From Oscillospiraceae bacterium (GTDB taxonomy: Bacteria; Bacillota; Clostridia; Oscillospirales; Ruminococcaceae), in NCBI GenBank assembly GCA_009777835.1, contig WRKZ01000001.1, positions 23,696 to 87,695 of the forward strand: a DNA stretch of 64,000 nt. Direction: 5' to 3'. A program made the translations under genes and the position numbers. The notes below the pieces were generated by a model that worked only from the letters and a program-made list of their open reading frames with translations, ran no database searches and was not told the DNA's origin. Below are positions 2,312 to 56,453 of this stretch, piece by piece (positions within the stretch are counted from its first letter, which is position 1; every line of letters begins with the position of its first letter).

Positions 2312-2347
2312 GGTGATTCGACCTTTCCGTAATGTAAGAATAACTTC

Positions 2348-2356
2348 ATTATATCA
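2348..2356 (-). promoter_or_regulatory. Extended -10 promoter (TGaTATAAT) for metA
   Basis: Minus strand reads tgatataat about 37 nt upstream of the ATG; SD ggaaagg present. Confidence 0.55.
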
Positions 2357-2363
2357 CAAACCC

Positions 2364-2407
2364 TAAACAGAATCAACCCCGGAAGCGTAAACTCCCGGGG
2401 TTGATTC
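2364..2407 (-). terminator. Intrinsic terminator after the serpin-fusion gene
   Basis: Perfect 13-bp stem gaatcaaccccgg/ccggggttgattc followed by tgttt on the minus strand. Confidence 0.75.
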
Positions 2408-2473
2408 ACAAGGAAAAAAGGAAAACAATGAAAACAAGCAGTTTTAATGGGTCGGAGTAATAATACGTGTAGT

Positions 2474-5400
2474 CTAGATTTCCAGCAACGCGCCGATGAA
2501 AATCGGTGTATTTGTCGTGTTATCAACAATCGCGAAGACGAATGGGCGGTTCAAGTCAACCTGTTTTGGTGTCAGTGACCAATCCCAAGCGTCCACGACC
2601 ACCGTTGTTACTGCCGCCGCTTTCGTGCCGGATTCATCTACTTCGATAAAAGTCTTGTGAAAAACGCCGCCGATATAGATGTTTCCATCCGGGGAGAGTG
2701 CTGTGCCGAGTTTCGAGAAGTCTGCATCGCGTTCATTGAATGCGGTAGACATTCCCATAGCTTTCAGAATATCGTTGAGTTCTATATCATATTCAAACGT
2801 GAATTTCGGCAGGAAGGTAATCAAGCCTTCTGACGGAGTTCTTGCCGACTTGAGTGCCTTGGTGATACCTTCCCCGCTCATGCTCTCGATATAGTCTTCG
2901 ATGCTTATCCCCTCATTCGGAAGGAATGCCGCAAAGGAATAGTGTCCGCCGGCATAATCTTTGGTGAAGCCGGTCGCATTTTCGGTTTGGAAGTATTTCA
3001 TGTCCTTTTGGTCGATTGCCAACATAAAGTCAACGTTTTGTTTGCTTCCGTCGGCTTTGGTGAAGTCACGTTTAATGACATCCTTCTCTTCATACTGTGA
3101 TTCCCAGGTCGAATCAAAAGCGATTGCGTTAATCAGGAACATAATGGTCAGTGGGTCGATTTCTTCCTCAGGGTTGAGGATTTCGTTAATCATGCCTTGG
3201 GTGCTTTGCGAAACCCATTCGTTAATGTCGGTGATTGCTTGGCTATCGAACGCCGACGGTTTAATCAGGGCGTTATAGAAAAGCTCATTCGTTTTAAGGA
3301 AGGCTTCCTTTATCGTGAAAATCTTCGGGGTTTCTCTGTACCAAATCGAGTTGGCGATTTCCAGTTTAGAACCCTCCACACTCGGCAATCCCGCTACATA
3401 TGCCGATAAAGCTTCGTTGAGTTGTGCGAGGCTTAATCCGCGTCCGAGTACGGCTTCCATCTCGGAAAGGGTCGTTCCGTCTGCTCCGTTAGCCGTCATA
3501 GCTAATGCAAGCAGAATCGACAGCGGCGAAACCAGATTGTTTTCGTCTGATTTTTCGGCAAAGCTCTTTTTGAATACATCAACCGTTAAATCTGCGAGTG
3601 CCGGCGCGAATTCGCTGTGCTGTTCGTACAAAAACGGTGCGGGTGCAGGCTCTTCAATCGGTTCTTTTGGTTCGGGTGCAGGGGTCGAAACGACGGTTCC
3701 GTTCAGCCCCAACGCCCCGCTTTGGGTGAAGTCTTTCAGCGACATTGAAACGACCGAATTGTTCGAAACAGCGTACGCATAATCGCCGATATACAGTCCG
3801 CGCTTGAATTCCGTTTGAGAGCCTTGGGTGTTGCTTAAAATTTCACCGAGCAGCGTGAATCCGTTTTCGGAATCATACGAAAGGAACGCAAATCCCGAAA
3901 CCTGCCCGCCCGTGGCGGATTTAATGTATGGGAAGCCGATGATATTCTTCTCCGGTACAACAAGAACCGATTTATGCTCACTTTCAAATGGGCTGCTATA
4001 GTAAGCGTAGGAACCGTTGTTTGTGTTGTTGGTGAGTTGATAAACGTCCAATTCGTTCAGCTCTTCGCCGTCTGCTACGTCAAACATGGTGATTTTAAGC
4101 CCCATGCGGACTCCGTTATCGTCGGTATCAACCCCGAAACCGAGGAGCAATCCCTCTTCGGAATCCCATTGGTGCAGATAGCGTGAGAAACCGGGAATCT
4201 TCAGTTCGCCCAGAAGAACAGGGTTAGTGGGTTCGCTTAAATCGAACGCAAACAACGGGTCGGTCTGCCAGAAAGTCACGATGTAGCCGCGGTCGCCGAT
4301 GAATCGTACCGAGTGAACGCTCTCGCCGAACCCGATTCGGTGAACCTCCGCCAAAATGTTCATACCTTCGTCAAATGTGTACAACGTTCCGCCCTGGAGT
4401 CCGTACATTTCGTCGAAATCAATCGGTACAAACGTCCGCATTGCCCAGTAAGTTCCTTGCAGACTTTCGGGAATGGGCAGAATGGTTGTGTTTTCCGATT
4501 GTTCGGGGCCTTTACCCCAAATTTCGGTCACTACCCGGAGGATGCCTTCGTGTTCGTCTAAATTGAACTGGTTGCGAATGTTCCCCTTGACCCTGCCTTG
4601 GGCGACGTATTCGATTTCGCCCGAGTCAAACGAAAACTTGTCGATGGTGGTGAAGTTTTCGTAGTTGCCGCTCCACCAACCCCATCTCCACCAGAGGTTG
4701 CTTTCGCTTCTTGTGATGTAGATGTTTTCGAGGGACGCATAAATGGTCTGAACCGAGCCGAGGTTCGCCATTACCGATACGGGGAGTTCTTCCCGCTCAA
4801 CGTCAAGCCCGCCGATTACCGTGTAGGAAATGTGGTCGAGTTCTTCCGGGAGGATGATTGATTTCCCGGGAACAATACAGCGTTCCCCGTTTGAGGTGTA
4901 GGAAGGAACGTATTCTTCAAGATTTTTGAATCCCAAACTGTCGGAGGTTGCCAGAATTTTCAGCGAAGGCGTGTAGTTGGAAATGAGGTATACGTTATTT
5001 TCCGACATTCTTGACGAGTGATATTGCCCCTTCTGCGAATAAGACGAGAGCGGCGCAGAGAAATCTCCGGCGGTATCGTACACATCCACGAATACTTCAT
5101 GCTCAAAATAAGAGATGTTGGAGGTGTAGGTCTTCCCGTTGTAGTCGTATTCGGTGGGGATTACGGTAAGGTCATGTCTGCCCCAAATCACGACCAGTTT
5201 GCCCTCATAAAGCAACATTTCATGGAGTTGGACAGCATCTTCGGGGAGGTTGATTTTAGCCTTGAGATTCATATCCCCGTTGTCGGTTTCGATAACGTTC
5301 ACGCCGATACCTTCGGAGGTGAATTTGTGTGCCGTTTCGTTATATCTGAGTGTCCCCGGCGCGACCACGTAGATGTTTTTTCCGTCGGTCTTGACTATGT

Positions 5401-28479: not shown

Positions 28480-28552
28480 GGGGGTATAGCGCAGTTGGGA
28501 GCGCGTCTGACTGGCAGTCAGAAGGTCAGGGGTTCGAATCCCCTTATCTCCA
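28480..28552 (+). tRNA. tRNA-Ala(GGC)
   Basis: Full cloverleaf: acceptor GGGGGTA/TATCTCC with G3-U70, anticodon arm TCTGA-CTGGCAG-TCAGA, TTCGAAT loop; CCA not encoded. Confidence 0.97.
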
Positions 28553-28620: not shown

Positions 28621-28694
28621 TGCACCATCAGGGACTCGAACCCCGGACCTACCGGTTATGAGCCGGTAGCTCTAACCAACTGAGCTAATGGTGC
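28621..28694 (-). tRNA. tRNA with CAT anticodon, most likely tRNA-Ile2 (lysidine type)
   Basis: GCACCAT/ATGGTGC acceptor, ACCGG-CTCATAA-CCGGT arm; loop CTCATAA resembles Firmicutes Ile2 rather than elongator Met (TTCATAC); paired position 1-72 excludes initiator. Confidence 0.9.
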
Positions 28695-32514: not shown

Positions 32515-33474
32515 ATGAAACGTATACCTTTATTATTGTTGCTGATTTTGCTGATTACGGCAATCAGCGTAACGGGGTGCAGTAAAGTTGATGACGGGGT
32601 TCCTGAGGAAACACCTGACAGCAGTACTGAGGCAGAGACCACCGAGCCGCCGGAAGAAACGGGTGAGCCTGAACCGCAAATTCCCGAGTTGCCGCCGATG
32701 CTCCCCGATTATCTTGAGTTCTATGAAATCAATGAGGATGTGGTGGGACATTTGAGAATTGACGGAACGAAAATCAATTATCCGGTGCTTCAAGGCCCGA
32801 ACAACGACTTCTACATGGACCACAACATTTACAAGCAGGAAGATAAGATTAACGGTTCGGTTACTGCCGATTATAAGAACCGTTTCAACGGCTACGAAAT
32901 CTCCGATAATACGGTTTTGTTCGGGCATAACAATGCGGGGAATTTTCTGTCGGTGGGTCAACTGACGCGGTATTACTTCGGTGCGCTTGACGGTTCGTTG
33001 GCTTTTTACAAATCGAACCCGGTGGTGTATTTCGATACCATGTACGAAAAAATCGAGTGGAAGGTGTTTGCGGGGGTGCTGTTTAACACGCAAGATCGAT
33101 ACGGCGAACGTGTTTTCTTCTGGAATCATACCGATTTCGCTAACGAAAAAGACTTTCATGATTATATCCGAATGGTAATGGACAGGAGTCCGTTTTTCAC
33201 CGATGTTGATATCGAATACGGCGACCAAATTCTCTCGCTTATGACGTGTTATTACCCCGGTCCCGATGTCGATGCGCGGTGGGTGGTGTTCGCACGGCGG
33301 GTTCGTCCCGGGGAGAGTAACGAGGTCGATACAAGCAAAGCTATTTTTAACCGCGATTATTTCCGTTTTGGAAAGAGTTCCGGCGAAAGTACCTGGGACA
33401 CGTCTTATTTGAAGAGTCTTTCGGGTGAATCGGGTGAGTTGCCGCCGGTCGGCAAATGGAGGAAGTATGAATAG
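32515..33474 (+). CDS. srtB: Class B sortase with a lipoprotein signal
   Basis: Lipobox VTGC; INYPVLQGPNNDFY, LFGHN (His), LSLMTCY (Cys), RWVVFAR (Arg). Confidence 0.9.
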   Translation: MKRIPLLLLLILLITAISVTGCSKVDDGVPEETPDSSTEAETTEPPEETGEPEPQIPELPPMLPDYLEFYEINEDVVGHLRIDGTKINYPVLQGPNNDFYMDHNIYKQEDKINGSVTADYKNRFNGYEISDNTVLFGHNNAGNFLSVGQLTRYYFGALDGSLAFYKSNPVVYFDTMYEKIEWKVFAGVLFNTQDRYGERVFFWNHTDFANEKDFHDYIRMVMDRSPFFTDVDIEYGDQILSLMTCYYPGPDVDARWVVFARRVRPGESNEVDTSKAIFNRDYFRFGKSSGESTWDTSYLKSLSGESGELPPVGKWRKYE

Positions 33475-45674: not shown

Positions 45675-48600
45675 ATGAGAAAAAGAAGATTGCTTGCAAT
45701 CCTCGTGACTGTGTCGATGGTGTTATCACTGTTTACCATGTTTACGAGTGCAAGCGACGCTGTTCGTGACACTGTAACCCGTGAATGGGGCTATGTGAAC
45801 GAATATGAATACGAAATCGATGTCAAAGTTGATTTCGGCGGCAACGTTGCTTTTGCTGTTGGCGATAAGGTAAACCTTAGTGCCGTTGATGCTGATAGTT
45901 TCGTTGCTGAAAAAGCTGACTCCTCTCCTAAAGCATTTACGGTCAGCGGCGCAAAAATTAGCGGAAACAACCGCACACAGGAAATTGCTACCGATTCTTT
46001 CGGTTGGGAAGTTTTCACTGTTGTCGGTACTGCTAATGACAGAATTACCGCGGGAAGCCGTTCTTCTCTTACTTTCACCTTAGTTGGTAAGTTCGAGGCC
46101 GACCTTTACAACGGTACTTACGAAGTGGATGACATCCAGATTGTTGATGATTTCTTTGCTCAACTCGTTCTCGGTGAATCCCCTGAAGAAGAAGAAATCG
46201 ATTTCGTGTACGCTGAAGACGATGACGGCATTGATGAAATCATTTTCGTTACCGATGTACGTGCAACCGCTACCAAAGTTGCTCTTGAAGACGTTGTTGA
46301 CAATGGGTCGGATTTCATCGGTAACTCTGACCTCGGTCTGTACGGCGATTACGGTGATGGAATCTTCACCCTTAAAATGAAAGGGATTGAATGGGACGAA
46401 GCACCTTTCATTTTCGGTGCTGACGCTGTAGTTCTTGACCTTGATTTCGTTGGACGTAACTTAGGAAATTCCGGGAATAGTGACCCTAACTACGACTTAC
46501 TCGTATGGACTGACATTTTCGAACTTGCTAATGCTGATGATAACGGCGACTTCGATATTGAAGAGTTCATTGATGAAGTTGTGAGAGTACGTATTCCTAA
46601 ACCTGCAAATGCAAACGCAAACCTCGGAACACTTAGTGCAGAACTCCCTGTTGATTATCTTTACTGCGAAAGCGATGATGACGGCTACGAACAAGTAGAA
46701 GAAATCTACTTTGCTGTTGTAAATCGTGTAGCTAAAAAAGATGATACTTGGGCAACCGTGGTTATCGAAGACGTTCTCGGTGAAGATACCCCGGACTCTG
46801 CAGAAAACCAACTGTTCGGTGCTACCCTCACTATCGAAGGTGAGTACCTGCTCATCGGCGTTCCTGAAGGCGAAGGCGAAGTTACCCGCTCTTACGGATA
46901 CGTAAATGAGTACGAATACGAAATTGATGTAAAAATCGATTTCGGTGGAGAAGTATTTTTCGCTGTCTCTGACGCGGTTGAACTCGACGGCGGATTTAAT
47001 GCCGCAGTTGCTGAAGAACTTGCTACTCTGGAAGCTACAATGGCTGTCGAAACCGCTGCTTATGATGCCGCTTCGGCATCTGAAGAAACCGTTACTAGCG
47101 TTATGACTTCGGCTTCTACGGATGAGTCTTCCGCTAGAACCGCTGCGACATCCGCTTCTAACGCTGCTGCCGATGCTAGCGCATCTCTCGTTTCGGAATC
47201 GGTTGCTGGTAATAATACTTCTGCTTTTTCTAGTGCTTACGCTAGTGCACTCGTTGATGTCGCATCGGCAGAAGCTGCTGTAGCCTCTGCTTCCAGTGCG
47301 TACTCAAGTGCTTCGGTGGCTAGTGACTCTCTGGACGTTGCTATGACCAGTGCTTCTACCGCATACGATAATGCTTCTTCCAGTGCAAGCTCCATCGAAG
47401 ACGAAGCTGACCGTGTTTTCGTAGTTGCTGCTGACGAAGACGAAAACGAATTCGAACTGACTGTAAGTGCTGTTAGAATCAGCGGAAACAGCCGTATGCA
47501 ACCTGCTGACAACACTGACCAGCTTGGTAGTGCTGACGCAAGAGAAAAAGGATTTGAATGGGATGTTGCCAGTGCTGTGGGTACACGTAATGACAGACTC
47601 ACCGCAGGAAACCGTTCTTATCTGACTTTCACTTTAATCGGTAATTTTGATTTAGACCTCTACAATGACGGATTTGACGTAGATAGCATCAAAATCGCTG
47701 AAGGATTCTTGGCTACCATTATATTTGATGAGGATTCATCGGAAACCCCATTCAAGTATAACAAAAATGTAAATGGTATTGATGACATCATCTCTGTATC
47801 GGCTGTTCGCAAGACCGGCGAAAAAGTTGCCCTTGATGACGTTGTTCTTTCTAAGGCTTCGAACACGAACAATGCAGGCGCATTCGACCTTACCGACGGT
47901 GTTACGACCCTTGAATTAGGTAGAATTCTGTTCAATGAAGCACCGTTCATCTTCGGTGCGGAATCCATTGTCCTTGACCTTGAATTCACAGAAAGAAACC
48001 TGAAGAACTTCAATACGGGCGATGATAACTATGACTTGCTCGTTTGGACTGATTTGTTTGAAGACGAAAACACAGAAGAAGGCGACACTTTTGACGTAAT
48101 GGATTTCCTTGGTGATGTTGTTAGATTCCGTATTCCGAGACCTTCTAACGCTAACACTAACCTCGGCGTTCTCAGCGTTGAACTTCCTGCTGAATTCTTC
48201 TCGAACGCAGACTTTAAACGCGCAAGCAAAATTTACTTCGCTGTAATTAACCGGGTTGTTGGGGAAAATGACACATTCGTTGATGTTGTTATCGAAGATG
48301 TTGTAGACGGAACCGACAACGCTCTCTGGGGCGCATCTCTCACCATTGAAGGTGAAGCTATTCGTCCTACAGTTCCTGTCAAAGAAAACTACGTTATCGA
48401 TGACATTTCCGAAAAAATCGGCGAAGACGGCAAAGTTGATTTAGCTGAATTAATCGCTGAAATCGGGGCAAACTACGACAAGGTTATACTTTCTGAAGAA
48501 GGCTTACTCGCTCTCGAAGAAGATTTGACCGTAGTTGTAGCAGAAGGAATCGAATACACGATTCTGGTAGACTCCATCGATGAAGACGCGATTGCTGAAG

Positions 48601-49493
48601 GATTCGTATTGAATTTCTCGGTAGTCAGCGAAAACTACGCAATCGAAGGATACTCCTTCGCAGAAGGCTCACTCGTGATTCTTCCCGGCGAAGTTGGCGA
48701 ATTCGGACTTGACATTGAACTGTTCGTATCGGCAGAACTCCTCGGCGAACTTGACGCAGCAGACATCAATCTGTACTATGTTTCCGGCGCGACTGTTTCT
48801 CTCATCAAAGACGGCGTTGAAGTCGTAGTTGAAGCTTGTGAAGAAGCAGAAGAAGACGAAGAGCATGATTGCGAAGAAGAAGAATGTGAACTCGCTGTTC
48901 TCGGCGTAAAAGTCGTACTCAGCAAAGCAAGCTTCTACGTACTCGCTGACGCTGCTCCTCAAGTAGAAGGTGACGTAACTGATACTACCACTTCTGACAC
49001 CGAAACCGAACCGACCGAAACCGAACCGACCGAAACCGAAACTTCGGCAACTGAAACCGAAACTTCGGGAACCGACACTTCCGTAAGCACTACTTCGGGA
49101 ACCGACACTTCCGTAAGCACTACTTCGGGAACTTCCGGAAGCAATGACGTTAACACTTCGGACACTTCGGACACTTCGGACACTTCCGGAACTGCTACTT
49201 CTGTAAGCGAATCCGATACTGAAGCTACTTCGGAAACTTCTGAAATTATTGAAGAAGGCTACAAAGTAGGTGACGTTAACGGTGACGAACAGATTACGAT
49301 TGCTGACGCACTCGAAATTCTGAAGTACTTGGCGAAAATGACGAGTACCCTCGACACAGAAGAAGGTCTTGAAGCGGGAAGAATCCTCGGCGCAACCGTA
49401 CCGGGAATCGGCGATGTTCTTGAAATCCTCAAATACCTCGCGAAAATGAACAACGCACTCGTTGATAATCACGATTGGGCACCCAGGGCGTAA
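45675..49493 (+). CDS. Large acidic secreted dockerin protein, candidate S-layer/major surface protein
   Basis: Signal peptide; duplicated ~370-aa unit; Ala/Ser insert; beta-rich domain ending ASFYVL; T/S/E linker; C-terminal GDVNGDEQITIADALEILKYLAKM dockerin. Confidence 0.8.
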   Translation: MRKRRLLAILVTVSMVLSLFTMFTSASDAVRDTVTREWGYVNEYEYEIDVKVDFGGNVAFAVGDKVNLSAVDADSFVAEKADSSPKAFTVSGAKISGNNRTQEIATDSFGWEVFTVVGTANDRITAGSRSSLTFTLVGKFEADLYNGTYEVDDIQIVDDFFAQLVLGESPEEEEIDFVYAEDDDGIDEIIFVTDVRATATKVALEDVVDNGSDFIGNSDLGLYGDYGDGIFTLKMKGIEWDEAPFIFGADAVVLDLDFVGRNLGNSGNSDPNYDLLVWTDIFELANADDNGDFDIEEFIDEVVRVRIPKPANANANLGTLSAELPVDYLYCESDDDGYEQVEEIYFAVVNRVAKKDDTWATVVIEDVLGEDTPDSAENQLFGATLTIEGEYLLIGVPEGEGEVTRSYGYVNEYEYEIDVKIDFGGEVFFAVSDAVELDGGFNAAVAEELATLEATMAVETAAYDAASASEETVTSVMTSASTDESSARTAATSASNAAADASASLVSESVAGNNTSAFSSAYASALVDVASAEAAVASASSAYSSASVASDSLDVAMTSASTAYDNASSSASSIEDEADRVFVVAADEDENEFELTVSAVRISGNSRMQPADNTDQLGSADAREKGFEWDVASAVGTRNDRLTAGNRSYLTFTLIGNFDLDLYNDGFDVDSIKIAEGFLATIIFDEDSSETPFKYNKNVNGIDDIISVSAVRKTGEKVALDDVVLSKASNTNNAGAFDLTDGVTTLELGRILFNEAPFIFGAESIVLDLEFTERNLKNFNTGDDNYDLLVWTDLFEDENTEEGDTFDVMDFLGDVVRFRIPRPSNANTNLGVLSVELPAEFFSNADFKRASKIYFAVINRVVGENDTFVDVVIEDVVDGTDNALWGASLTIEGEAIRPTVPVKENYVIDDISEKIGEDGKVDLAELIAEIGANYDKVILSEEGLLALEEDLTVVVAEGIEYTILVDSIDEDAIAEGFVLNFSVVSENYAIEGYSFAEGSLVILPGEVGEFGLDIELFVSAELLGELDAADINLYYVSGATVSLIKDGVEVVVEACEEAEEDEEHDCEEEECELAVLGVKVVLSKASFYVLADAAPQVEGDVTDTTTSDTETEPTETEPTETETSATETETSGTDTSVSTTSGTDTSVSTTSGTSGSNDVNTSDTSDTSDTSGTATSVSESDTEATSETSEIIEEGYKVGDVNGDEQITIADALEILKYLAKMTSTLDTEEGLEAGRILGATVPGIGDVLEILKYLAKMNNALVDNHDWAPRA
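49000..49200 (+). repeat. Nested short tandem repeats encoding the Thr/Ser/Glu linker
   Basis: 30-bp unit at 49062 and 49092; gaaaccgaaccgacc x2; acttcggac repeats. Confidence 0.85.
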
Positions 49494-49609: not shown

Positions 49610-50326
49610 ATGAAAAAAATGGTAAAACTCATGTCAATAATCGTAGCTATCGCTATGATTGCTTCTCTCGCAGTTAGCGCATCCGCTTCTGCAGGCACTC
49701 CGAACACTGCCGGAGAAAAAGGAATCGTATTCGGTTTCGTAAACAATGACCCGACTAAGTTGGCACTTATCGTTCCGGACGGCGGAACTACCGGTATTGC
49801 CGGTTGGGGATTCGTTGACATCAAAATCGTTCCTCCTGCAGGCGGAACCATCAATGCACGTCCGTCAGCTGCTGACGAAGACCTTGACATCACTAACACC
49901 CCCGGTTCCAGCGTAGTTGAAGGCACCTACGGCGGCGGCGTTGTATTCCCTGAATTTTTTGCAGGCGGATTCGTTGTTGCAACTTGGAACGTAACCGGAA
50001 CCGGCGACTTCGTAATCACCGGTGACTACACTTATGACCCTGAAGGCGCTGATAATGAAGATTTCACATTGAACCTTACCGTAAGCAACGTATTCGGAAG
50101 CACCGAAACTACCGTTGCAACTCAAGAAACCGCTGCACCTACCGAAACAACTGAAGGCGGAACTGAAGAAGGAACTCAAGCAACTGCAGCTCCTACCGCA
50201 GCTCCTACCGCTGCTGCTACCACCACTTCGGGAACCACTCCTAAAGGCGGCGTAGCTCTCGCAATCATTCCTACTTTGGCAGCTGCCGGCGCAGCAGTCT
50301 TCGCAGCTTCCAGAAAAAGGAAGTAA
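49610..50326 (+). CDS. Sortase-signal surface protein with a ~135-aa beta domain (candidate cohesin/anchoring scaffoldin)
   Basis: Signal peptide, beta-strand domain, T/A/E linker, TPKGG-hydrophobic-RKRK tail; the cohesin call is a loose pattern match only. Confidence 0.65.
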   Translation: MKKMVKLMSIIVAIAMIASLAVSASASAGTPNTAGEKGIVFGFVNNDPTKLALIVPDGGTTGIAGWGFVDIKIVPPAGGTINARPSAADEDLDITNTPGSSVVEGTYGGGVVFPEFFAGGFVVATWNVTGTGDFVITGDYTYDPEGADNEDFTLNLTVSNVFGSTETTVATQETAAPTETTEGGTEEGTQATAAPTAAPTAAATTTSGTTPKGGVALAIIPTLAAAGAAVFAASRKRK

Positions 50327-50442
50327 GACTAACCTAATGTCAAGGCTTTGACATTGCAAACAGGTAATATGCGGGCGGTAGATTAGCTCTGCTGCCCGCT
50401 TTTACAACTAAAATTAGAGGGAAAATCTGGAGGAATACTAAC

Positions 50443-50718
50443 ATGAAATTGAGAAAAGTTTCTTCACTCGTGATTGCTATCGCTATGGCGGCTACTATGG
50501 CTGCAGCAGCAAGTGCGAGCGAAAACGAAACCGAAACCACTGCTGAAGAAACCACCGCTGCAACTGCTGCTACGACTGCAGCAACTACTGCCGGTGGAAC
50601 TGTTGCAGGTGGGGACAAAGACGGCGACCTCAAAACAGGTGTCGGCGGCGTGGCTATCCTCGGTGGAGTCGCTGTTATGGCGGCAGGTGCCGTTATAGTC
50701 GCGAAAAAGAGAAAGTAA
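50443..50718 (+). CDS. Minimal sortase-signal protein (Thr/Ala/Glu-rich mature peptide of about 40 aa)
   Basis: SD ggagg; signal peptide; DLKTG-hydrophobic-KKRK tail. Confidence 0.82.
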   Translation: MKLRKVSSLVIAIAMAATMAAAASASENETETTAEETTAATAATTAATTAGGTVAGGDKDGDLKTGVGGVAILGGVAVMAAGAVIVAKKRK

Positions 50719-50733
50719 TCGCATCACGCGATG

Positions 50734-50768
50734 AACGACGCCGGGATTTTTCCGGCGTCGTTTTATTG
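50734..50768 (+). terminator. Intrinsic terminator closing the surface-protein operon
   Basis: aacgacgccgg/ccggcgtcgtt stem followed by ttatt. Confidence 0.8.
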
Positions 50769-50772
50769 AAGA

Positions 50773-50858
50773 TAAGGGTGTAATACCCGCCCATTGGGGC
50801 AGTTCTCTCGCCCGTAGGGCGAGGGGTGCAGGGCTTGCCCTGCGGTGTTAGCTTACAT
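50773..50858. repeat. Repeat family B, copy 2
   Basis: Highly similar to 28741-28827. Confidence 0.85.
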
Positions 50859-51090
50859 TTGGCGAAATTTGTATGAATCTGCCGACACGATTTTGGGAAA
50901 AGTATATTGAAGCAATCCTTATTCCTATATTTAGAAGCGTTGAGAATTTTCGTGAAAAATAACCAAAAATTCACCTAAAATTTTGGTTATTTTGCCTATT
51001 GAAAATTTCTTAAATTTATATTATAGTATAAGGGTAAGCATTTGCGGCTGTTCGGCTGCAAAAACAAAAAAATTTGGAGGAAATAATCGC

Positions 51091-51759
51091 ATGAAATTAA
51101 GGAAAATTCTATCGTTAGTCGTGGCAATCGTCATGATTAGCACTCTCGCAATTTCCGCAGGCGCGGTTTGGACAGTTCCGATTGAATCGGCACCGAGTGG
51201 ATACGACGTACAGTTCCATGTAGCGGGCTCTTCGGTAAGACCCAGAACCGATGCAATCAACTACGAACTTATCAGGGGCGTAAGATGGACGTTCGAACTC
51301 ACCGAAACCGATTACGGTGTAGACGAAAATGGTGTTCCCGGGGATTTCGTTGTGGTTAGTGCCGGTTGGAACTGCGGACCTACTGGCTGGCAACAACAAG
51401 ATTTCAATTACCCGGCACAAAAAAGCTACACGGTTGACCTTAGTCAACACGCTTGGGTTCCCGCACCTGAAGGTCAAGAAGGCGGCACGGGAATCGACTG
51501 GTTGGAGGTTTCTGCAGCAGTATTCTCCGACCTTACGTGTAAAGGAACGGTTAAAATCGAAATCCTCGGGCCGAACAACGTTGTTCTTTCCAGAGGACAG
51601 CAGGAACTCGCAACTACGAGTACCGGCACTACTGCTACCGGCAACACCAACAATTCCGAACTTAAAACCGGCGTTGACGGCGTGGCGATTCTTGGCGGCG
51701 TAGCGATTCTCGCGGCAGGTGCAGTAATTGTTACCGGCAAAAGAAGAAAATCTCGCTAA
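51091..51759 (+). CDS. Sortase-signal surface protein with a Trp-containing beta-sandwich (CBM-like) domain
   Basis: SD ggagg; signal peptide; WNCGPTGWQQQDF; ELKTG-hydrophobic-KRRK tail. Confidence 0.8.
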   Translation: MKLRKILSLVVAIVMISTLAISAGAVWTVPIESAPSGYDVQFHVAGSSVRPRTDAINYELIRGVRWTFELTETDYGVDENGVPGDFVVVSAGWNCGPTGWQQQDFNYPAQKSYTVDLSQHAWVPAPEGQEGGTGIDWLEVSAAVFSDLTCKGTVKIEILGPNNVVLSRGQQELATTSTGTTATGNTNNSELKTGVDGVAILGGVAILAAGAVIVTGKRRKSR

Positions 51760-51868: not shown

Positions 51869-52834
51869 GTGAGGAATCAAATGAGGAAATTTATAGCAAG
51901 TATTACAGCGGGATTAATTTCCGTGCTGTTTTTGACGACGATTGCAAGCGCAATTCAGTTTAGCCCTGAAAACAAAGACATCGAAATCGTGTATGGCGAA
52001 TTCACCGGATACAGATTCAACGGGCCGGAAGCCCCGGTTGGGGTGAACACCTCACAAATCGCGAAGGTGAAGTTCTATATCAAATGCCCCGACTTAGAGA
52101 CAATCGAAGAAGCGGTCGTGCAACTTGTATTCAATTCGGGGAGTACCGGTTGGGTCGAAACCGAACATGATTTGAACGACGGACTAATCGTCGAAGTGGA
52201 GGTTGACGGTGTAGTCGAAGGTGATTTCTTCGATGCGGCGTTGGGAACCTGGAACGAAGAAGTTTGGGGAACGTTCTCGGTAGAATTGCTCAACTCGGCA
52301 GGAGGAGTCATCGGAACGCCGGTTTACCCCGACAATGAACCCGAAGTCACCGAGACCGAACCGGAATTCACCACGTCGGAACTTATGAAAGACGGAGTGA
52401 ACACCGAAGAAACGAGTGAAGAAATGACCGAAGAAATGACCGAAGAATCCATCGAGGAAACCATGCCTGAATTTACCGAACATGAAACCACCGAGACTCA
52501 TCACGAAATGACCGAACCGGAAGAAACAGTCGCCCCTAAAGACGGGACTTTCGCCCCGGTGACTACCACCATGTTCGAGACTGTAGCGGGCGCGCAAGAC
52601 AACGAAACCAACACCACCGAGACCGTTACGGAAACCATGAGCGAAGAAGAAGTCACCACCGTCCCGACCACCGAGGCAACGACAGCAGAGACTTCGCCTC
52701 ACAGCTCCGCGGCAATTCAAGGCGGAAATGAAACCGCGCCCAAGACCGGCAGTACGCATATCGCGACTGCGATTATCATCACGACACTTTCGGCAGTGAC
52801 AATCGCGACAACACGTAAGAAGAGGAATCCTTAG
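51869..52834 (+). CDS. Sortase-signal surface protein with a related CBM-like domain and a long T/E stalk
   Basis: Signal peptide; FNSGSTGWVETEH; Glu/Thr-rich stalk; APKTG-hydrophobic-RKKR tail. Confidence 0.8.
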   Translation: MRNQMRKFIASITAGLISVLFLTTIASAIQFSPENKDIEIVYGEFTGYRFNGPEAPVGVNTSQIAKVKFYIKCPDLETIEEAVVQLVFNSGSTGWVETEHDLNDGLIVEVEVDGVVEGDFFDAALGTWNEEVWGTFSVELLNSAGGVIGTPVYPDNEPEVTETEPEFTTSELMKDGVNTEETSEEMTEEMTEESIEETMPEFTEHETTETHHEMTEPEETVAPKDGTFAPVTTTMFETVAGAQDNETNTTETVTETMSEEEVTTVPTTEATTAETSPHSSAAIQGGNETAPKTGSTHIATAIIITTLSAVTIATTRKKRNP

Positions 52835-52886: not shown

Positions 52887-53471
52887 TCATCTTATTTCAA
52901 CGATTGTGATGTTTTCAACCGGGACGCTGACTTCGCTTAAGAGTGCGTCTTTGATTTTCGCGGCATCTTGTGCGGTAAGTCCGTCGGTACGGACGATTAT
53001 GTTCGTACCGCGTTCGGAAATGTAACACAGCACATCCGAGAATCCTTGTGCACGTAGGAGGGCTTCGACTTTAGCCTCACTTTCGATGAATCCGCCAAGG
53101 GAAAGTGCATCCCCGGCGATTGCCTGGATTTCCTCACCGCGAACGTCACCGCCTGATATAATGGTCTGGATAAATTCTTTGGCTTCATCACGGCTTTCGC
53201 GCTTTGAAATCCTCGCCTGGGCGAAAAACGCCGCAACATCATCGTCGAGTATGTCTGCTGAGACGAATTGCGTGTCACCATAGTTGGAGTTCCTGCCGGC
53301 TTGTTCCTCGCCCGCATTTTCGGAAGGGGTGGTGGAGGGCTGAACGTTCCTGTTTGCCGAGACCGCAAAGTTTACATAGACCGCTAACCCTAAAAGTAAA
53401 GCGAGTCCTGCGATTATGATTTGTTTTTTACCGATGATTACGTTGATTCGCGGAAGTTTGAATTTTCTCAT
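52887..53471 (-). CDS. spoIIIAH: Stage III sporulation protein AH
   Basis: LGLAVYVN TM, FFAQARI..RE.R, EAKVEALLRAQGFSD; last gene of the operon. Confidence 0.9.
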   Translation of the reverse strand: MRKFKLPRINVIIGKKQIIIAGLALLLGLAVYVNFAVSANRNVQPSTTPSENAGEEQAGRNSNYGDTQFVSADILDDDVAAFFAQARISKRESRDEAKEFIQTIISGGDVRGEEIQAIAGDALSLGGFIESEAKVEALLRAQGFSDVLCYISERGTNIIVRTDGLTAQDAAKIKDALLSEVSVPVENITIVEIR

Positions 53472-53510
53472 GTTAGTTTTCTCCTTTGGAATGTAAGATT
53501 AGTTTTTGTT

Positions 53511-53996
53511 TTAAGAAGTTACGCTGATTCTCGTTGTGTTGATTCCTAACACGCGTGAAACCAACTCAATGAGTTTCTGTTTGACGATTACGTTTTCGCC
53601 GCCTTCACAAACGATTGCCACCCCGCGGACTTTTGGGGTTATGACGGTTCTGACACCGCTCCCCCTCTCGGAATAGACGTTCTCGGAAAGGCTGTCTAAT
53701 GTAACGACGATTGTGAACTCCCCTACGCCGTCAATAGCGGAAATGGCCCTTTCAAGCTTTTGTTCGAGTCGCTTCTCGTATTCCTCATAAGCGGTGTAAT
53801 CCGAAACCGCCGCCGGGTTCGAGCCGCCTCGATCGTTCTGCGAAAACGCATCCGATACGAACAGCAGTGCAATCAATGCTAATGCGCCGACCAGCAGTGT
53901 TTTGAACGCTTTCTCATTCTTGAACAATGACCTAAAGTCAAAGACTTTGCTTTTCTTCTCCATGATTCCATGCCGCCCACCCTGCATATGCGGCAT
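53511..53996 (-). CDS. spoIIIAG: Stage III sporulation protein AG, short form (start 53996 or 53963)
   Basis: YEKRLEQKL...IDGVG...V.VTL, PKVRGVAIVCEGG, L.I...RISV. Confidence 0.85.
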   Translation of the reverse strand: MPHMQGGRHGIMEKKSKVFDFRSLFKNEKAFKTLLVGALALIALLFVSDAFSQNDRGGSNPAAVSDYTAYEEYEKRLEQKLERAISAIDGVGEFTIVVTLDSLSENVYSERGSGVRTVITPKVRGVAIVCEGGENVIVKQKLIELVSRVLGINTTRISVTS

Positions 53997-54025
53997 GGTG
54001 GTTAGTCCTTTCCTGTTTTTTAAGC

Positions 54026-54532
54026 TCACGCTTCGTCCGTCTTGAATTCCCCCGTGATTAATATTTCGTCTCCAACCTCCCTCTGAATGATTCGAAATGA
54101 CTCCCTGAGCCGCTCAATTTCTTCTTCATTCTCCTCATCCCCTTCCTTTGTGAGTACAACCCTAATTTCATTAATAGATATGCTGTACTTGTCTGAAATA
54201 TTAACGTTTACCGAAATTTGTCGTACGAAAATTTCTTCCTCGGCTAATATCCGGGTGAGTTGGTGGCTTATTTCCTTCTCGACTGCATGGGATTGCGCTT
54301 TGTTGTATTCCTCTTCGAAGTTGATGTACGGAATGTTGTCGAACAGCCCGTCGGTTTCAAATTCCGATGCGAAGTTGACCCGCCCGCTCGTGAAAAAGAA
54401 AGCGAATCCTGCAAGGAAAAAGCATGAGACCATGAAATCTGTCTGCTTTTTGGCAGAGCCTTCCGGCAATAACATTTTGAACAGGCTTAATGCAATCGCC
54501 ATTAAGCATACGTTTAGAAGAATTTCCCTCAT
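54026..54532 (-). CDS. spoIIIAF: Stage III sporulation protein AF
   Basis: Two N-terminal TM with MLLPEG; operon position. Confidence 0.75.
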   Translation of the reverse strand: MREILLNVCLMAIALSLFKMLLPEGSAKKQTDFMVSCFFLAGFAFFFTSGRVNFASEFETDGLFDNIPYINFEEEYNKAQSHAVEKEISHQLTRILAEEEIFVRQISVNVNISDKYSISINEIRVVLTKEGDEENEEEIERLRESFRIIQREVGDEILITGEFKTDEA

Positions 54533-54594
54533 TGTTATGACCATGCCTTTCCGCCACAAAGTGGCATGAATTCAAACCTGTCAAGCTCACCTGC
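54530..54594 (-). repeat. Shared leader element plus family A fragment ahead of spoIIIAF
   Basis: 64/65 identical to 56451-56515, including the start codon. Confidence 0.92.
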
Positions 54595-54619
54595 CGGCGG
54601 CTTGACGAAGCAAGCCCTG

Positions 54620-55780
54620 CTATGCTCCCCCAATGCGAATCATGAGTGCGACCGAAACTAACATAATCAGTGTAAAGCAGGAAATCATGGCTAAAATAAT
54701 CGAAAGTATATTCTCCCCGCTTTTGAGCAGTGAACCCAGTCGCGCCGCCCCGAACATTTCACCTACCGCTGCGGCGGCGGTTAGCGTGAATCGGAACACA
54801 AGCACCGACAGCAAAGACGGAAGACAGACCGCCGCAATCGCGACCATGCCGAATGCCCCGGTCGCGCTCTTAACCACTGTGAAGCTTCCGTTCACCACCG
54901 ATAAAGCATCCGAAATTGAGCCGCCGATAAACGGCACTCCTCCTGAAATGGTGAATTTTACCGCCCGCATCGCGACAGAGTCGGTACTCCCCGATACAAG
55001 GCTTTGAATCGTCAACAGCCCGACAAACAGCGTAGTGAGTAGTCCCAACGTCCAGACCACGAAGGTCTTTACCATATGGGCGAGACGTTCGGTCTTTAAA
55101 TCCGGGCTGACCGCCCCCGCAATCGAGACCCCTAAAATCGATACCGATAAAGGCATTAATGCCATTACCATGACCTGGCTGAAAATCTGTGCCGCCGCAA
55201 TGACCGCACCGTTGAACAGGTTCGCCGATACAAGTTGACCCATGACCGCCATTATTCCCGCCAGAATCGGAATAAAAGTCAACATGAATGCCCCCGCCGC
55301 CGTAAGGGTCTCGGTGGTGCGCATGACACATTCGGCGATTACCGCGCTCATAATCCCCGCCCCTGCGAGAACCCCCGCCATCTCGAAAGCGGTTACGGCA
55401 GAAGAACCCGATTTGGGGCCTGAAGCCGAGTCCCGCAGGGTCTCAGCAACCGCACACAGAAGAATCACCCCCGCCAAAGACATGAACATTTTCAGCGGCT
55501 TGGTGATTTCCTGTTTGAGGAGTGTCCATAATTCCGACAACACCGCCGTGAAGGTCAATTCAAGGGGCTTTGCTTCCTCCATGAATTCCTGCGCATCATC
55601 GGGGAGGGCTTCCAGCAATTCGTCTTGGTAAAGGTTGAGGTTTTCTTCTATATAGTTATTTAAATTTAGGGACACGATTTCGTTACGCTCATAGTCGTTT
55701 TCAACGACTATATTATTAGCAGAAGCCGAAAAAGTCGGCAGAATTATTACAAGAAGTATAATTGCGAACAGTTTTTTCAT
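54620..55780 (-). CDS. spoIIIAE: Stage III sporulation protein AE
   Basis: Multi-TM; PILAGIM, GLLT.Q, KFTISGGVPFIGGSISDA, VKSATGAFG. Confidence 0.92.
   Translation of the reverse strand: MKKLFAIILLVIILPTFSASANNIVVENDYERNEIVSLNLNNYIEENLNLYQDELLEALPDDAQEFMEEAKPLELTFTAVLSELWTLLKQEITKPLKMFMSLAGVILLCAVAETLRDSASGPKSGSSAVTAFEMAGVLAGAGIMSAVIAECVMRTTETLTAAGAFMLTFIPILAGIMAVMGQLVSANLFNGAVIAAAQIFSQVMVMALMPLSVSILGVSIAGAVSPDLKTERLAHMVKTFVVWTLGLLTTLFVGLLTIQSLVSGSTDSVAMRAVKFTISGGVPFIGGSISDALSVVNGSFTVVKSATGAFGMVAIAAVCLPSLLSVLVFRFTLTAAAAVGEMFGAARLGSLLKSGENILSIILAMISCFTLIMLVSVALMIRIGGA
55691..55711. repeat. 21-bp palindrome (family D) inside spoIIIAE
   Basis: atagtcgttttcaacgactat, identical to 61560-61580. 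Confidence 0.8.
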
Positions 55781-55810
55781 TTTCACTTCCCCTTTTTGAA
55801 TTTTTCTCAA

Positions 55811-56200
55811 TCAGGCGTTAATCAATCCCACGACAATATCCACCAGTCCTTTGAACAACGGAAGCGACACCAGAACAATCGCCAGTTTGCCCGCCATCTC
55901 GATTTTTGCGGCGATTGCCGTCTCACCGGAATCGCGGCAGGTGTCTCCCGCAAGTTGGGTTATATAGCAGATTGCTAATGCTTTCAGGAGTGCCGCACCA
56001 TAAACCGCATCGAGGCTTACGGTGTCGGTGAGTTCACGGATTAGCGTAAGTACCGGTGAAATCTGCCGAATTACGGCAAGCAGAATGACAATCCCCGCAA
56101 TCAGCGAGATGTATATGCCGAATTCGGGCTTGTACTGCTTTATGACTATAGAAAGCAGGGCAGCGATAATCCCCGCCCCGACAATCGGTATAAGTTCCAT
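55811..56200 (-). CDS. spoIIIAD: Stage III sporulation protein AD
   Basis: KQYKPEF, LLKAL.I.YITQ....CRDSGE.AIA.KIE.AGK. Confidence 0.93.
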   Translation of the reverse strand: MELIPIVGAGIIAALLSIVIKQYKPEFGIYISLIAGIVILLAVIRQISPVLTLIRELTDTVSLDAVYGAALLKALAICYITQLAGDTCRDSGETAIAAKIEMAGKLAIVLVSLPLFKGLVDIVVGLINA

Positions 56201-56255
56201 ATGACATGCCTCTTTCCGGTTGTTCCTTACATTTTTGACAGCTTTTCGGCTTACT

Positions 56256-56453
56256 TCAAGCAAACCCGAACACATTCTTAATCGTGTCGAACAGTACGCC
56301 GATTTCCTTTATAATCATCAGCAGAACCACCACTAATCCGGCTATACTGACCATCATTGCCTGTTCATTACGCTCCGACTGTTTAAGTAATTGCGAAAGT
56401 ACCGCCACGATGATTCCCACCCCGGCAATCTGAAAAATCAAGTCCAGTTCCAT
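56256..56453 (-). CDS. spoIIIAC: Stage III sporulation protein AC
   Basis: MELDLIFQIAGVGIIVAVLSQLLKQSER.EQA. Confidence 0.93.
   Translation of the reverse strand: MELDLIFQIAGVGIIVAVLSQLLKQSERNEQAMMVSIAGLVVVLLMIIKEIGVLFDTIKNVFGFA

What the first reader, a model, noticed from the sequence alone, without database searches (positions are those of the whole stretch)
50443..50718. Sortase substrate with no folded domain
Seen: after signal-peptide removal and cleavage at the LKTG motif, only about 40 aa remain (ENETETTAEETTAATAATTAATTAGG...). Its signal and tail closely match those of 51091..51759 (LKTGV.GVAILGGVA..AAGAVIV), as if the central domain had been deleted. It keeps a strong SD and biased codons. 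Inference: a wall-anchored glycopeptide, a spacer that occupies sortase acceptor sites, or a silent cassette for domain swapping.
Basis: partly seen in the sequence, partly recalled or inferred. Interest (0 to 1): 0.65.

Follow-up and report, generated by a model that had tools for sequence, protein, structure and literature searches.

The report
Short acidic sortase-type surface peptide gene
This is a real, strongly transcribed small gene of an uncultured termite-gut Clostridium whose product is only a secretion signal, a 40-residue acidic stalk and a cell-wall anchoring signal; such stalk-only sortase substrates are already known from lactic acid bacteria (CscD), so this is an unusual variant, not a new kind of thing.

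Summary
ORF 50443..50718 (+) encodes 91 aa: a signal peptide, 40 acidic Thr/Ala-rich residues, then DLKTG, a 21-residue hydrophobic stretch and KKRK. GGAGG lies 9 nt upstream.

It is a genuine gene:
- Its codon score matches its neighbours, while the other five frames score below zero.
- Relatives in other metagenomic lineages are 52-57% identical, and differences concentrate at third codon positions.
- Termite-gut metatranscriptome contigs cover it contiguously with the upstream surface-protein gene, at about ten times the depth of nearby housekeeping genes.

It belongs to a conserved cluster: dockerin protein, A, hairpin, B (this gene), C, D. B is accessory. One lineage has cleanly lost it. 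In others, B carries acidic helices or poly-Asp instead of the Thr/Ala stretch. Shortness and strong acidity are the constant features.

The tail belongs to an Oscillospiraceae sorting-signal class close to NCBIfam Rumino_NPXTG (18.7 bits against a cutoff of 23.5), in which proline is often absent. A class B-like sortase lies 17 kb upstream.

B is not a recent deletion derivative of its neighbour C, and not a silent cassette. Sortase cleavage, glycosylation and function remain untested. The closest known analogue is CscD. Interest is modest.

The parts
45675..49493 (+). 1272-aa secreted protein with a C-terminal dockerin; first gene of the conserved surface cluster
   Evidence: Pfam Dockerin_1 at E 2.6e-4, 21.6 bits, just under the 22.9 cutoff. 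The same position is held by a dockerin-bearing protein in L038. RNA contig depth is 10-64.
49610..50326 (+). Gene A: 238-aa secreted protein with a Thr-rich linker and the tail TPKGGVALAIIPTLAAAGAAVFAASRKRK; co-transcribed with B
   Evidence: ORF. Orthologues lie upstream of B in L037 and L038. RNA contigs 49682..50845 (X1) and 49621..50714 (X2) span A and B.
50371..50403 (+). Conserved GC-rich hairpin plus a short U-tract between A and B; a leaky terminator or RNA-stabilising stem
   Evidence: Intergenic fold -34.5 kcal/mol, z -4.6. Present after A in 6 lineages, with 3 compensatory pairs. RNA contigs read through it.
50429..50433 (+). Shine-Dalgarno GGAGG, 9 nt before the ATG
   Evidence: Read directly from the sequence. 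A GGAGG is also present upstream of B in L004, L009, L037 and L038.
50443..50718 (+). Gene B, the finding: 91-aa pre-protein
50443..50517 (+). Signal peptide, aa 1-25, with predicted ASA|S cleavage
   Evidence: Positively charged start, hydrophobic core and cleavage site identified by inspection. Helix 4-24 in the model. Conserved among B orthologues.
50518..50637 (+). Predicted mature peptide, aa 26-65: acidic Thr/Ala-rich low-complexity stalk ending in GDKDGDLKT
   Evidence: 40 aa, net charge -6, no aromatic residues. No Pfam domain reaches threshold. Low pLDDT.
50626..50640 (+). Sorting pentapeptide D-L-K-T-G, with the presumed scissile bond at T65|G66
   Evidence: Fits the family logo [G/D][G/D]K-x-x-[L/A/P]-[D/N/K]-T-G. 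Aligns to NPXTG of NCBIfam NF033846.
50641..50715 (+). Hydrophobic Gly/Ala/Val-rich segment (21 aa) plus the KKRK stop-transfer tail
50733..50768 (+). Intrinsic terminator-like hairpin (14 bp) after B
   Evidence: Fold -34.1 kcal/mol, z -4.95. Homologous hairpins follow B in L004, L009 and L038, and remain in L031 where B is missing.
50999..51032 (+). Conserved promoter of gene C (TTGAAA-17-TATAGT) and its transcription start near 51032
   Evidence: Promoter scan. RNA contigs of three runs all begin at 51032. The sequence is conserved in L009, L014, L023, L031 and L038.
51091..51759 (+). Gene C: 222-aa protein with a beta-sandwich domain, a Thr-rich linker and the same tail class (ELKTG)
   Evidence: Homologues P0002-P0006. 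AlphaFold model with a confident core.
51881..52834 (+). Gene D: 317-aa protein with a very acidic linker and an APKTG tail
32515..33474 (+). Class B-like sortase, the candidate processing enzyme; active-site region LSLMTC
   Evidence: Pfam Sortase 35.3 bits, above the 26.6 cutoff. TIGR03064 srtB at E 4e-36, 124.5 bits, below the equivalog cutoff of 153.75. Motif scan.

Best explanation
Gene B (50443..50718) is a functional accessory gene of a conserved surface-protein cluster: dockerin protein, A, B, C, D. The host is an uncultured, spore-forming termite-gut Clostridium of the Oscillospiraceae/Ruminococcaceae type.

Shown:
- B is transcribed on one RNA with gene A, through a conserved leaky hairpin, at about ten times the depth of nearby housekeeping genes.
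- Its reading frame is under purifying selection.
- Its product has a Sec-type signal peptide, a 40-residue strongly acidic stretch with no predicted fold, and a C-terminal tripartite signal. That signal is x-L-x-T-G, then a Gly/Ala/Val-rich hydrophobic segment, then KKRK.
- The same tail class is found on some 35 clusters of small single-domain surface proteins.

Inferred:
- After export and signal-peptide removal, the protein is held in the membrane by its tail.
- A sortase, most plausibly the class B-like enzyme at 32515..33474, cuts between T65 and G66.
- The sortase then links the roughly 40-residue polyanionic peptide through Thr65 to the peptidoglycan stem peptide.
- The product is a 'stalk without a head'. 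It would be an abundant, negatively charged, hydrated peptide brush on the wall, or a wall-bound partner for the co-encoded surface proteins. It is functionally analogous to CscD of lactic acid bacteria.

What selection keeps in the B family is shortness, acidity and the anchor, not the sequence of the middle part.
For: Gene reality:
- Frame-specific codon score of +0.28.
- Orthologues of 93 and 104 aa at 52-57% identity, with all length differences in whole codons.
- Differences per codon position are 0.23-0.33 at positions 1 and 2 and 0.52-0.66 at position 3. Of the conserved residues, 42-52% use different codons.
- The identical gene occurs in three independent samples.

Expression:
- Four termite-gut metatranscriptomes hold the locus.
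- Contigs 49682..50845 (depth 35.4) and 49621..50714 (depth 12.1) join A and B.
- Genes in 30-45 kb have depth 0-4.
- The RNA origin is supported because contigs of three runs start at 51032, 5 nt after a predicted -10 box, and intergenic gaps are uncovered.

Anchor class:
- NF033846 Rumino_NPXTG scores 18.7 bits over model positions 3-30. The same sub-threshold hit appears in every family member tested.
- Orthologue L009_B passes the TIGR01167 LPXTG_anchor cutoff (16.4 against 15.9). IMG names it 'LPXTG-motif cell wall-anchored protein'.
- T-G is invariant in 38 of 40 tails.
- A sortase is encoded in the window.
- Class B sortase of Clostridium difficile cleaves (S/P)PXTG between T and G (PMC4155245), and covalent anchoring of proteins to peptidoglycan has been demonstrated in that species (PMC4591827 abstract).

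Family:
- An exhaustive HMMER scan gave 37 representative hits, of which 7 are 150 aa or shorter.
- Positional orthologues directly downstream of A occur in L037 and L038/L039.
- All mature parts are 38-100 aa with net charge -6 to -41.

Precedent: CscD proteins are 90-140 aa, with 40-60 residues between signal peptide and LPxTG (PMC1534035).
Against: - The pentapeptide lacks the proline of LPXTG, NPXTG and SPKTG. The window protein is below the curated cutoff of every anchor model.
- C. difficile SrtB did not cleave the proline-less NVQTG peptide in vitro (PMC4155245), so cleavage at DLKTG is not assured.
- The sortase lies 17 kb away, is barely covered in the RNA contigs, and its specificity is unknown.
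- Translation and wall linkage were not observed; only RNA contigs with flat depth were available.
- B is missing from three related lineages, so it is dispensable.
- Acidic Thr/Glu-rich linkers also occur in A and D, so the acidity of B may be only 'linker composition' with no selected function of its own.
Confidence: 0.6

Rival explanations
1. B is exported but not processed by sortase. It stays as a small type-I membrane protein, held by its C-terminal hydrophobic segment, with the acidic 40-residue stretch exposed at the outer face of the membrane.
For: The motif DLKTG has no proline. The window protein is below the cutoffs of NF033846, TIGR01167 and PF00746. C. difficile SrtB did not cut NVQTG. 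The neighbour A even has PKGG where its orthologues have PxTG, which shows that cleavable motifs can be lost in this cluster while the tail is retained.
Against: T-G is kept in 38 of 40 tails of the class, at a fixed distance from the C-terminus. A conserved upstream G/D-G/D-K box is also present. That pattern is what a protease or transpeptidase recognition site looks like, and a plain membrane anchor would not need it. The orthologue passes the LPXTG_anchor cutoff.
Confidence: 0.2
2. The functional part is carbohydrate. The Thr-rich stretch is O-glycosylated, and B is a wall-anchored glycopeptide or mucin-like carrier.
For: Ser+Thr make up 32% of the mature peptide. There are weak compositional hits to mucin-like Pfam families for B and for L009_B. 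Thr/Pro-rich linkers of cellulosomal proteins are known to be glycosylated (general knowledge, not tested here).
Against: Thr-richness is not conserved. Positional orthologues have 5% (L037) or 9% (L038, L017) Ser+Thr, with acidic helices or poly-Asp instead. No glycosyltransferase gene was identified in the cluster; A, C and D have no Pfam hit.
Confidence: 0.12
3. B is a decaying remnant: a C-like gene that lost its central domain and is drifting, with transcription being mere read-through from A.
For: The signal and tail resemble those of C. There is no promoter of its own between the hairpin and the ATG. B is absent from some lineages.
Against: The frame is intact in at least six lineages, with a conserved ribosome-binding site. 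Substitutions are biased to the third codon position. B signal peptides resemble other B signal peptides more than those of C. The codon usage resembles that of highly expressed genes. Where B was lost (L031), it was removed cleanly and not left to decay.
Confidence: 0.05
4. B is not translated. It is either the 3' UTR of A or a silent recombination cassette that supplies a signal and a tail for domain swapping.
For: None beyond the shared ends with C.
Against: Coding-type conservation and a frame-specific codon score. GGAGG lies at optimal spacing. No inverted or direct repeats or recombinase flank the gene: one search found only short in-frame codon repeats.
Confidence: 0.03

Closest known systems
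CscD family of Lactobacillus/Enterococcus/Listeria csc (WxL) clusters (Siezen et al. 2006, PMC1534035), including NCBIfam NF053819 EF2685/EF0750 sortase-dependent surface proteins
   Same: Both are extremely short sortase-type substrates. CscD is 90-140 aa, with 40-60 residues between signal peptide and anchor. Both are defined by architecture and not by sequence. Both are encoded inside clusters made exclusively of co-expressed surface proteins, in plant-fibre-associated Gram-positives. L004_B aligns end to end with the 105-position NF053819 model, though at only 18.6 bits.
   Different: There is no detectable homology: the window protein does not hit NF053819. The neighbours have no DUF916 or WxL domains. 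The motif is x-L-x-T-G of the Rumino_NPXTG-like class, not LPxTG. The host is a spore-forming Clostridium with a class B-like sortase. The middle part is consistently polyanionic.
NCBIfam NF033846 'NPXTG-anchored protein' (Ruminococcus C-terminal sorting domain)
   Same: The overall tail design is the same: xxxTG, a Gly/Ala/Val-rich hydrophobic segment, then RKRK. It is the best anchor-model hit for B, C and all relatives tested (13.7-19.7 bits).
   Different: All scores are below the 23.5-bit cutoff. Asn-Pro is replaced by Asp-Leu. The class found here has an extra upstream G/D-G/D-K box and rarely has proline.
Class B sortase substrates of Clostridium difficile ((S/P)PXTG; PMC4155245, PMC4591827)
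   Same: Both involve a clostridial class B-type sortase with cleavage before the Gly of xPxTG. Gene D of the cluster carries APKTG, which is close to SPKTG/PPKTG.
   Different: The C. difficile substrates are enzymes or adhesins with folded domains. Its enzyme did not cut the proline-less NVQTG motif in vitro.

Membership tests
Sortase-dependent cell-wall sorting signal (LPXTG-type) substrates | N-terminal Sec signal peptide | tested here: met
   MKLRK, an 18-residue hydrophobic core and ASA|S, identified by inspection. Helix 4-24 in the model. Conserved in orthologues. No dedicated predictor was available.
Sortase-dependent cell-wall sorting signal (LPXTG-type) substrates | LPXTG-like pentapeptide 17-45 residues from the C-terminus | tested here: inconclusive
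   DLKTG lies 26-30 residues from the end. T-G is present, but the Leu-Pro or Asn-Pro part is absent. In the tail class, T-G is invariant in 38 of 40 tails and proline is present in only a minority.
Sortase-dependent cell-wall sorting signal (LPXTG-type) substrates | Hydrophobic segment followed by at least two basic residues at the C-terminus | tested here: met
   VGGVAILGGVAVMAAGAVIVA followed by KKRK.
Sortase-dependent cell-wall sorting signal (LPXTG-type) substrates | Score above the curated cutoff of an anchor model (TIGR01167, PF00746) | tested here: not met
   The window protein has no hit to TIGR01167 or PF00746. Orthologue L009_B does pass TIGR01167 (16.4 against 15.9), and IMG names it an LPXTG-motif protein.
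Sortase-dependent cell-wall sorting signal (LPXTG-type) substrates | A sortase encoded in the genome | tested here: met
   32515..33474: Pfam Sortase 35.3 bits above the 26.6 cutoff. Class B-like at E 4e-36.
Sortase-dependent cell-wall sorting signal (LPXTG-type) substrates | Cleavage after Thr and amide linkage to peptidoglycan | not testable with these tools
   This needs enzyme assays or muropeptide mass spectrometry.
NCBIfam NF033846 Rumino_NPXTG | At least 23.5 bits against the 30-position model | tested here: not met
   18.7 bits, E 0.0016, model positions 3-30.
NCBIfam NF033846 Rumino_NPXTG | NPXTG pentapeptide | tested here: not met
   DLKTG in B and ELKTG in C. NPPTG and NPDTG occur on other proteins of related clusters.
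CscD (csc cell-surface clusters) | Signal peptide plus LPxTG-type anchor, total length 90-140 aa, 40-60 residues in between | tested here: met
   91 aa with 40 residues between the two. The definition is quoted from PMC1534035. The motif is a variant.
CscD (csc cell-surface clusters) | Encoded in a cluster with cscA (DUF916) and cscB/cscC (WxL domains) | tested here: not met
   Neighbours A, C and D have no Pfam hit, and the upstream protein has only a dockerin.
NCBIfam NF053819 EF2685/EF0750 family | At least 47 bits against the 105-position model | tested here: not met
   The window protein has no hit at E <= 10. L004_B scores 18.6 bits.

The most novel reading that the evidence does not exclude
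Sortase-attached polyanionic peptides could be a protein-based, phosphate-free counterpart of wall teichoic or teichuronic acids. B proteins, which range from Thr/Glu-rich through acidic helices to poly-Asp, would be made in bulk and grafted onto peptidoglycan. There they would set surface charge and hold divalent cations, for example the Ca2+ needed by the co-encoded dockerin-type assemblies, in fibre-degrading termite-gut Oscillospiraceae.
Probability: 0.1. Interest if true: 0.65.

Novelty: new variant of a known kind. Interest (0 to 1): 0.3.

Why it matters
Sortase substrates are usually thought of as enzymes, adhesins or pilins on a stalk. This gene shows that the 'stalk only' design, described so far for CscD in lactic acid bacteria, also exists in cellulolytic-type gut Clostridia.

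Three things stand out here. The gene is among the most strongly transcribed of its locus in the termite gut. It uses a proline-poor x-L-x-T-G signal. The only conserved property of its exposed part is negative charge.

That combination gives a concrete, testable case for two questions: what short wall-grafted peptides do, and how far class B-type sortase specificity extends. The practical consequence is modest. Annotation pipelines miss this protein, because it falls below every anchor-model cutoff. The tail logo found here could be used to extend the Rumino_NPXTG model.

Tried and rejected
- **Word-indexed protein search with the 91-aa protein:** no hit, not even to itself. This was an artefact of low-complexity words, not absence of homologues. 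Local phmmer with the same database size gives E 1e-11 to 1e-13 for the orthologues, and the exhaustive scan found 37 hits.
- **Genome-contig scan with the alignment of three B proteins:** only a distant Ruminiclostridium-labelled MAG with three domain-bearing proteins of the same tail class (L010), plus an irrelevant signal-peptide match (L011). The host species is not among the GTDB representatives, so taxonomy stays approximate.
- **Metagenome scan with a back-translated tail pattern:** 25 stretches, of which 10 were true family members. The rest were chance matches in GC-rich or transporter genes and were discarded.
- **Recent deletion or gene conversion from C in this genome:** tail identity between B and C is 66% protein and 64% DNA, no higher than between B and the C of another lineage (63% and 68%). 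I rejected a recent event for the window. In L004, L009 and L017, however, the 8-10 residues before T-G are nearly identical between B and C of the same genome.
- **Own promoter for B:** TTGACA (50348) and TAATAT (50365) are only 11 nt apart, so this was rejected. Co-transcription with A fits the RNA contigs.
- **Fold of domain C:** a confident beta-sandwich, but the best PDB matches are picornavirus jelly-rolls at TM about 0.3, which is uninformative. No cohesin or CBM assignment was made.
- **Pfam and NCBIfam on A, C, D and the longer B orthologues:** nothing reached threshold.
- **Within-species variation:** the three other contigs are identical in DNA, so no polymorphism-based test of selection was possible.
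- **Rfam:** only two tRNAs in the window. The A/B hairpin matches no known RNA family.

Full report
**1. What is there**

The ORF 50443..50718 (+) exists exactly as described. It encodes 91 aa in three parts.
- A typical Sec signal peptide: MKLRK, an 18-residue hydrophobic core and an ASA cleavage site.
- Forty residues of acidic Thr/Ala-rich low complexity: SENETETTAEETTAATAATTAATTAGGTVAGGDKDGDLKT. This stretch has net charge -6 and no aromatic residues.
- A tail: T-G, then VGGVAILGGVAVMAAGAVIVA, then KKRK.

Surrounding signals fit a real gene.
- GGAGG lies 9 nt before the ATG.
- A 14-bp terminator-like hairpin follows the stop.
- A single-sequence AlphaFold model is of low confidence (pLDDT 57.8). 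It shows only the two hydrophobic helices and a weak Ala/Thr helix.
- No Pfam domain reaches threshold.

The similarity of both ends to the neighbour at 51091..51759 is real.

**2. Is it a gene?**

Yes, on four independent lines of evidence.
- **Codon usage.** The codon log-odds, trained on 14 long genes of the window, is +0.28 in frame. That equals the neighbouring genes (0.22-0.47), and all five other frames are below zero.
- **Orthologues.** ORFs with the same architecture occur in other metagenomic lineages: L004 with 93 aa and L009 with 104 aa, at 52-57% identity, with length differences only in whole codons.
- **Substitution pattern.** Between these orthologues, differences per site are 0.23-0.33 at codon positions 1 and 2 and 0.52-0.66 at position 3. 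Of the conserved residues, 42-52% use different codons.
- **Transcription.** Four termite-gut metatranscriptome runs hold the locus.

The RNA evidence in detail:
- Assembled RNA contigs cover 49682..50845 (k-mer depth 35.4) and 49621..50714 (depth 12.1). Each runs from inside the upstream gene A, through the intergenic hairpin and across the small ORF.
- The contigs look like RNA, not contaminating DNA. Intergenic stretches are uncovered. Contigs of three runs for the next gene all begin at 51032, 5 nt downstream of a predicted TTGAAA-17-TATAGT promoter.
- Housekeeping genes at 30-45 kb (recJ, sortase, relA and others) have depth 0-4. The surface cluster has depth 10-64.

Translation itself was not observed.

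**3. Context**

The gene, here called B, sits in a row of same-strand secreted proteins:
- a 1272-aa dockerin-bearing protein;
- A (238 aa);
- B;
- C (222 aa, a beta-sandwich);
- D (317 aa).

The spoIIIA operon follows on the other strand.

The order 'dockerin protein, A, hairpin, B, terminator, conserved promoter, C' recurs in L038/L039. The order 'A, hairpin, B' recurs in L037.

The hairpin after A is conserved in six lineages, with three compensatory pairs.

B is accessory.
- In L031 both hairpins remain, with only about 45 nt between them, including remnants of B's 5' leader. This is a clean loss.
- L014 and L023 also go from A to C without B.

**4. The family**

The first search, which uses a word index, found nothing. 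That was an artefact of low-complexity words. An exhaustive HMMER scan of 1.84 billion representatives found 37 proteins at E <= 1e-3.

Thirty of them are 204-297-aa proteins. Their tails have the same design as B's.

Seven are 150 aa or shorter. Together with the B-type ORFs found in the loci, the middle parts of the short proteins differ widely:
- Thr/Ala/Glu-rich in the window, L004, L009 and P0009;
- an acidic amphipathic helix in L037/P0008;
- acidic helices plus a Thr/Ala linker in L038/P0010;
- a run of more than 40 Asp in L017;
- a short Cys-containing acidic segment in P0015 and P0017.

All of them are short (38-100 mature residues) and strongly acidic (net charge -6 to -41). The family therefore conserves architecture, shortness and charge, but not sequence.

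**5. The tail**

Aligned at T-G, 40 tails give this logo: [G/D][G/D]-K-x-x-[L/A/P]-[D/N/K]-T-G-[V/I]-[E/G]-G-V-A-..-G-G-.-A-V-.-A-A-G-A-..-V-.-[K/R]-K-R-K. Proline sits at the position corresponding to the Pro of LPXTG/NPXTG in only 5 of 40.

- The best curated model is NCBIfam NF033846 'NPXTG-anchored protein'. It scores 18.7 bits for B and 13.7-19.7 for relatives, all below the 23.5 cutoff.
- Orthologue L009_B passes the generic LPXTG_anchor cutoff. IMG names it an LPXTG-motif cell-wall protein.
- A related tail-bearing protein is annotated from Ruminococcaceae/Oscillospiraceae MAGs.
- The window encodes a sortase at 32515..33474. It hits Pfam Sortase above cutoff and is class B-like at E 4e-36, though below the equivalog cutoff.

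Class B sortase of C. difficile cuts (S/P)PXTG between T and G. It did not cut the proline-less NVQTG in vitro (PMC4155245). Cleavage at DLKTG is therefore plausible but unproven.

**6. Relation to gene C**

B and C share the same tail subtype. In L004, L009 and L017, the 8-10 residues before T-G are nearly identical between B and C of the same genome (GGEDGKQATG in both; DGSKDVDTG and DGSKDIDTG; GGSKVDTG and GGGKVDTG). Yet these residues differ between genomes. This points either to local gene conversion or to co-adaptation to one enzyme.

B is nevertheless an old lineage of its own.
- B signal peptides resemble each other across genomes (58% and 62% identity for two of the three pairs; window vs L009 is 46%). 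C signal peptides do likewise (77%).
- In the window, the B-C tail identity (66% protein, 64% DNA) is no higher than B against the C of another lineage.
- The longer B orthologues carry acidic helices, not the beta-sandwich of C.

The idea of a recent central deletion, or of pseudogene decay, is not supported.

**7. Mechanism**

*Shown:*
- a transcribed, selected, secreted-type small protein;
- it carries a conserved sortase-type signal;
- it is co-transcribed with surface protein A.

*Inferred:*
- signal-peptidase cleavage after A25;
- retention in the membrane by the tail;
- transpeptidation at T65|G66, linking the 40-residue polyanionic peptide to peptidoglycan.

The most likely role is a headless stalk. 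It would be either a charged, hydrated wall decoration or a wall-bound partner for co-encoded proteins.

The main rival is that it remains a membrane-anchored acidic peptide. The glycopeptide idea cannot be excluded for this copy, but Thr-richness is not a family trait. The silent-cassette and non-coding readings are contradicted.

**8. Comparison with what is known**

Siezen et al. (2006, PMC1534035) described CscD. These are LPxTG proteins of 90-140 aa, with only 40-60 residues between signal peptide and anchor. They are defined by architecture and encoded in co-expressed clusters of surface proteins in plant-associated lactic acid bacteria. NCBIfam NF053819 (EF2685/EF0750) models a family of small sortase-dependent proteins from the Enterococcus WxL/csc loci.

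The present gene works like a CscD but is not a member.
- There is no sequence match for the window protein.
- There are no DUF916 or WxL neighbours.
- The motif class and the host lineage are different.

It is therefore a new variant of a known kind, of modest interest.

Noticed in passing
window 50230..50326 (tail of gene A); also L031 9606..11209 and L038 3155..3985: Gene A ends in TPKGG-VALAIIPTLAAAGAAVFAASRKRK. Its orthologues have NPPTG, QPDTG or VAKTG at the same place (L014, L023, L037), while L031 and L038 also have P(K/R)GG. The scissile Thr appears to have been replaced by Gly in several lineages while the rest of the sorting signal is kept. These copies may no longer be sortase-cleavable.
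   Followed up: partly
window 50371..50403; L004 20..47; L009 22..49; L031 11245..11275; L037 286..316; L038 ~4025..4060: The GC-rich hairpin after gene A is more conserved than the flanking coding sequence, and has three compensatory base-pair changes. It is flanked by conserved GACATT...AGGTAA and TTTTTACAA. RNA contigs read through it. It matches no Rfam family.
   Followed up: partly
L004 position 1 and L009 position 1: Two contigs from different metagenome assemblies both end at exactly the homologous base: the G of GACATT, just upstream of the hairpin. This suggests a repeat boundary or strain-variable junction there.
   Followed up: no
window 50940..51090: The promoter region of gene C (TTTGG(C/T)TATTTTGC(T/C)(A/T)ATTGAAA...TATAGTATAAGGGTAAG) is nearly identical in lineages whose C proteins are only 33-45% identical. 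It is followed by a small 5'-UTR hairpin. RNA contigs of three runs start at 51032.
   Followed up: partly
L004 113..394 and 1811..2449; L040 5001..5345 (P0015): Three different proteins of sample 3300038395 share the exact pre-anchor decapeptide GGEDGKQATG. This suggests genome-wide homogenisation of the sorting motif, or tight co-adaptation to one enzyme.
   Followed up: partly
window ~49062 (Thr/Ser/Glu-rich repeat of the dockerin protein): The RNA contig of run X1 lacks 30 nt here relative to the window. This is an in-frame length variant in the repetitive linker of the 1272-aa protein.
   Followed up: no
L017 1..285: A B-type gene whose exposed part is a run of at least 41 consecutive Asp residues before the anchor. 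The contig is cut at the 5' end.
   Followed up: no
window 28480..28552 (+) and 28621..28694 (-): Two divergently oriented tRNA genes are the only Rfam matches in the window.
   Followed up: no
window 52887..58004 (-): A spoIIIA operon lies directly downstream of the surface cluster: SpoIIIAH, AE, AC and AB by the Pfam annotation on the identical contig L001. The host is therefore an endospore former.
   Followed up: no
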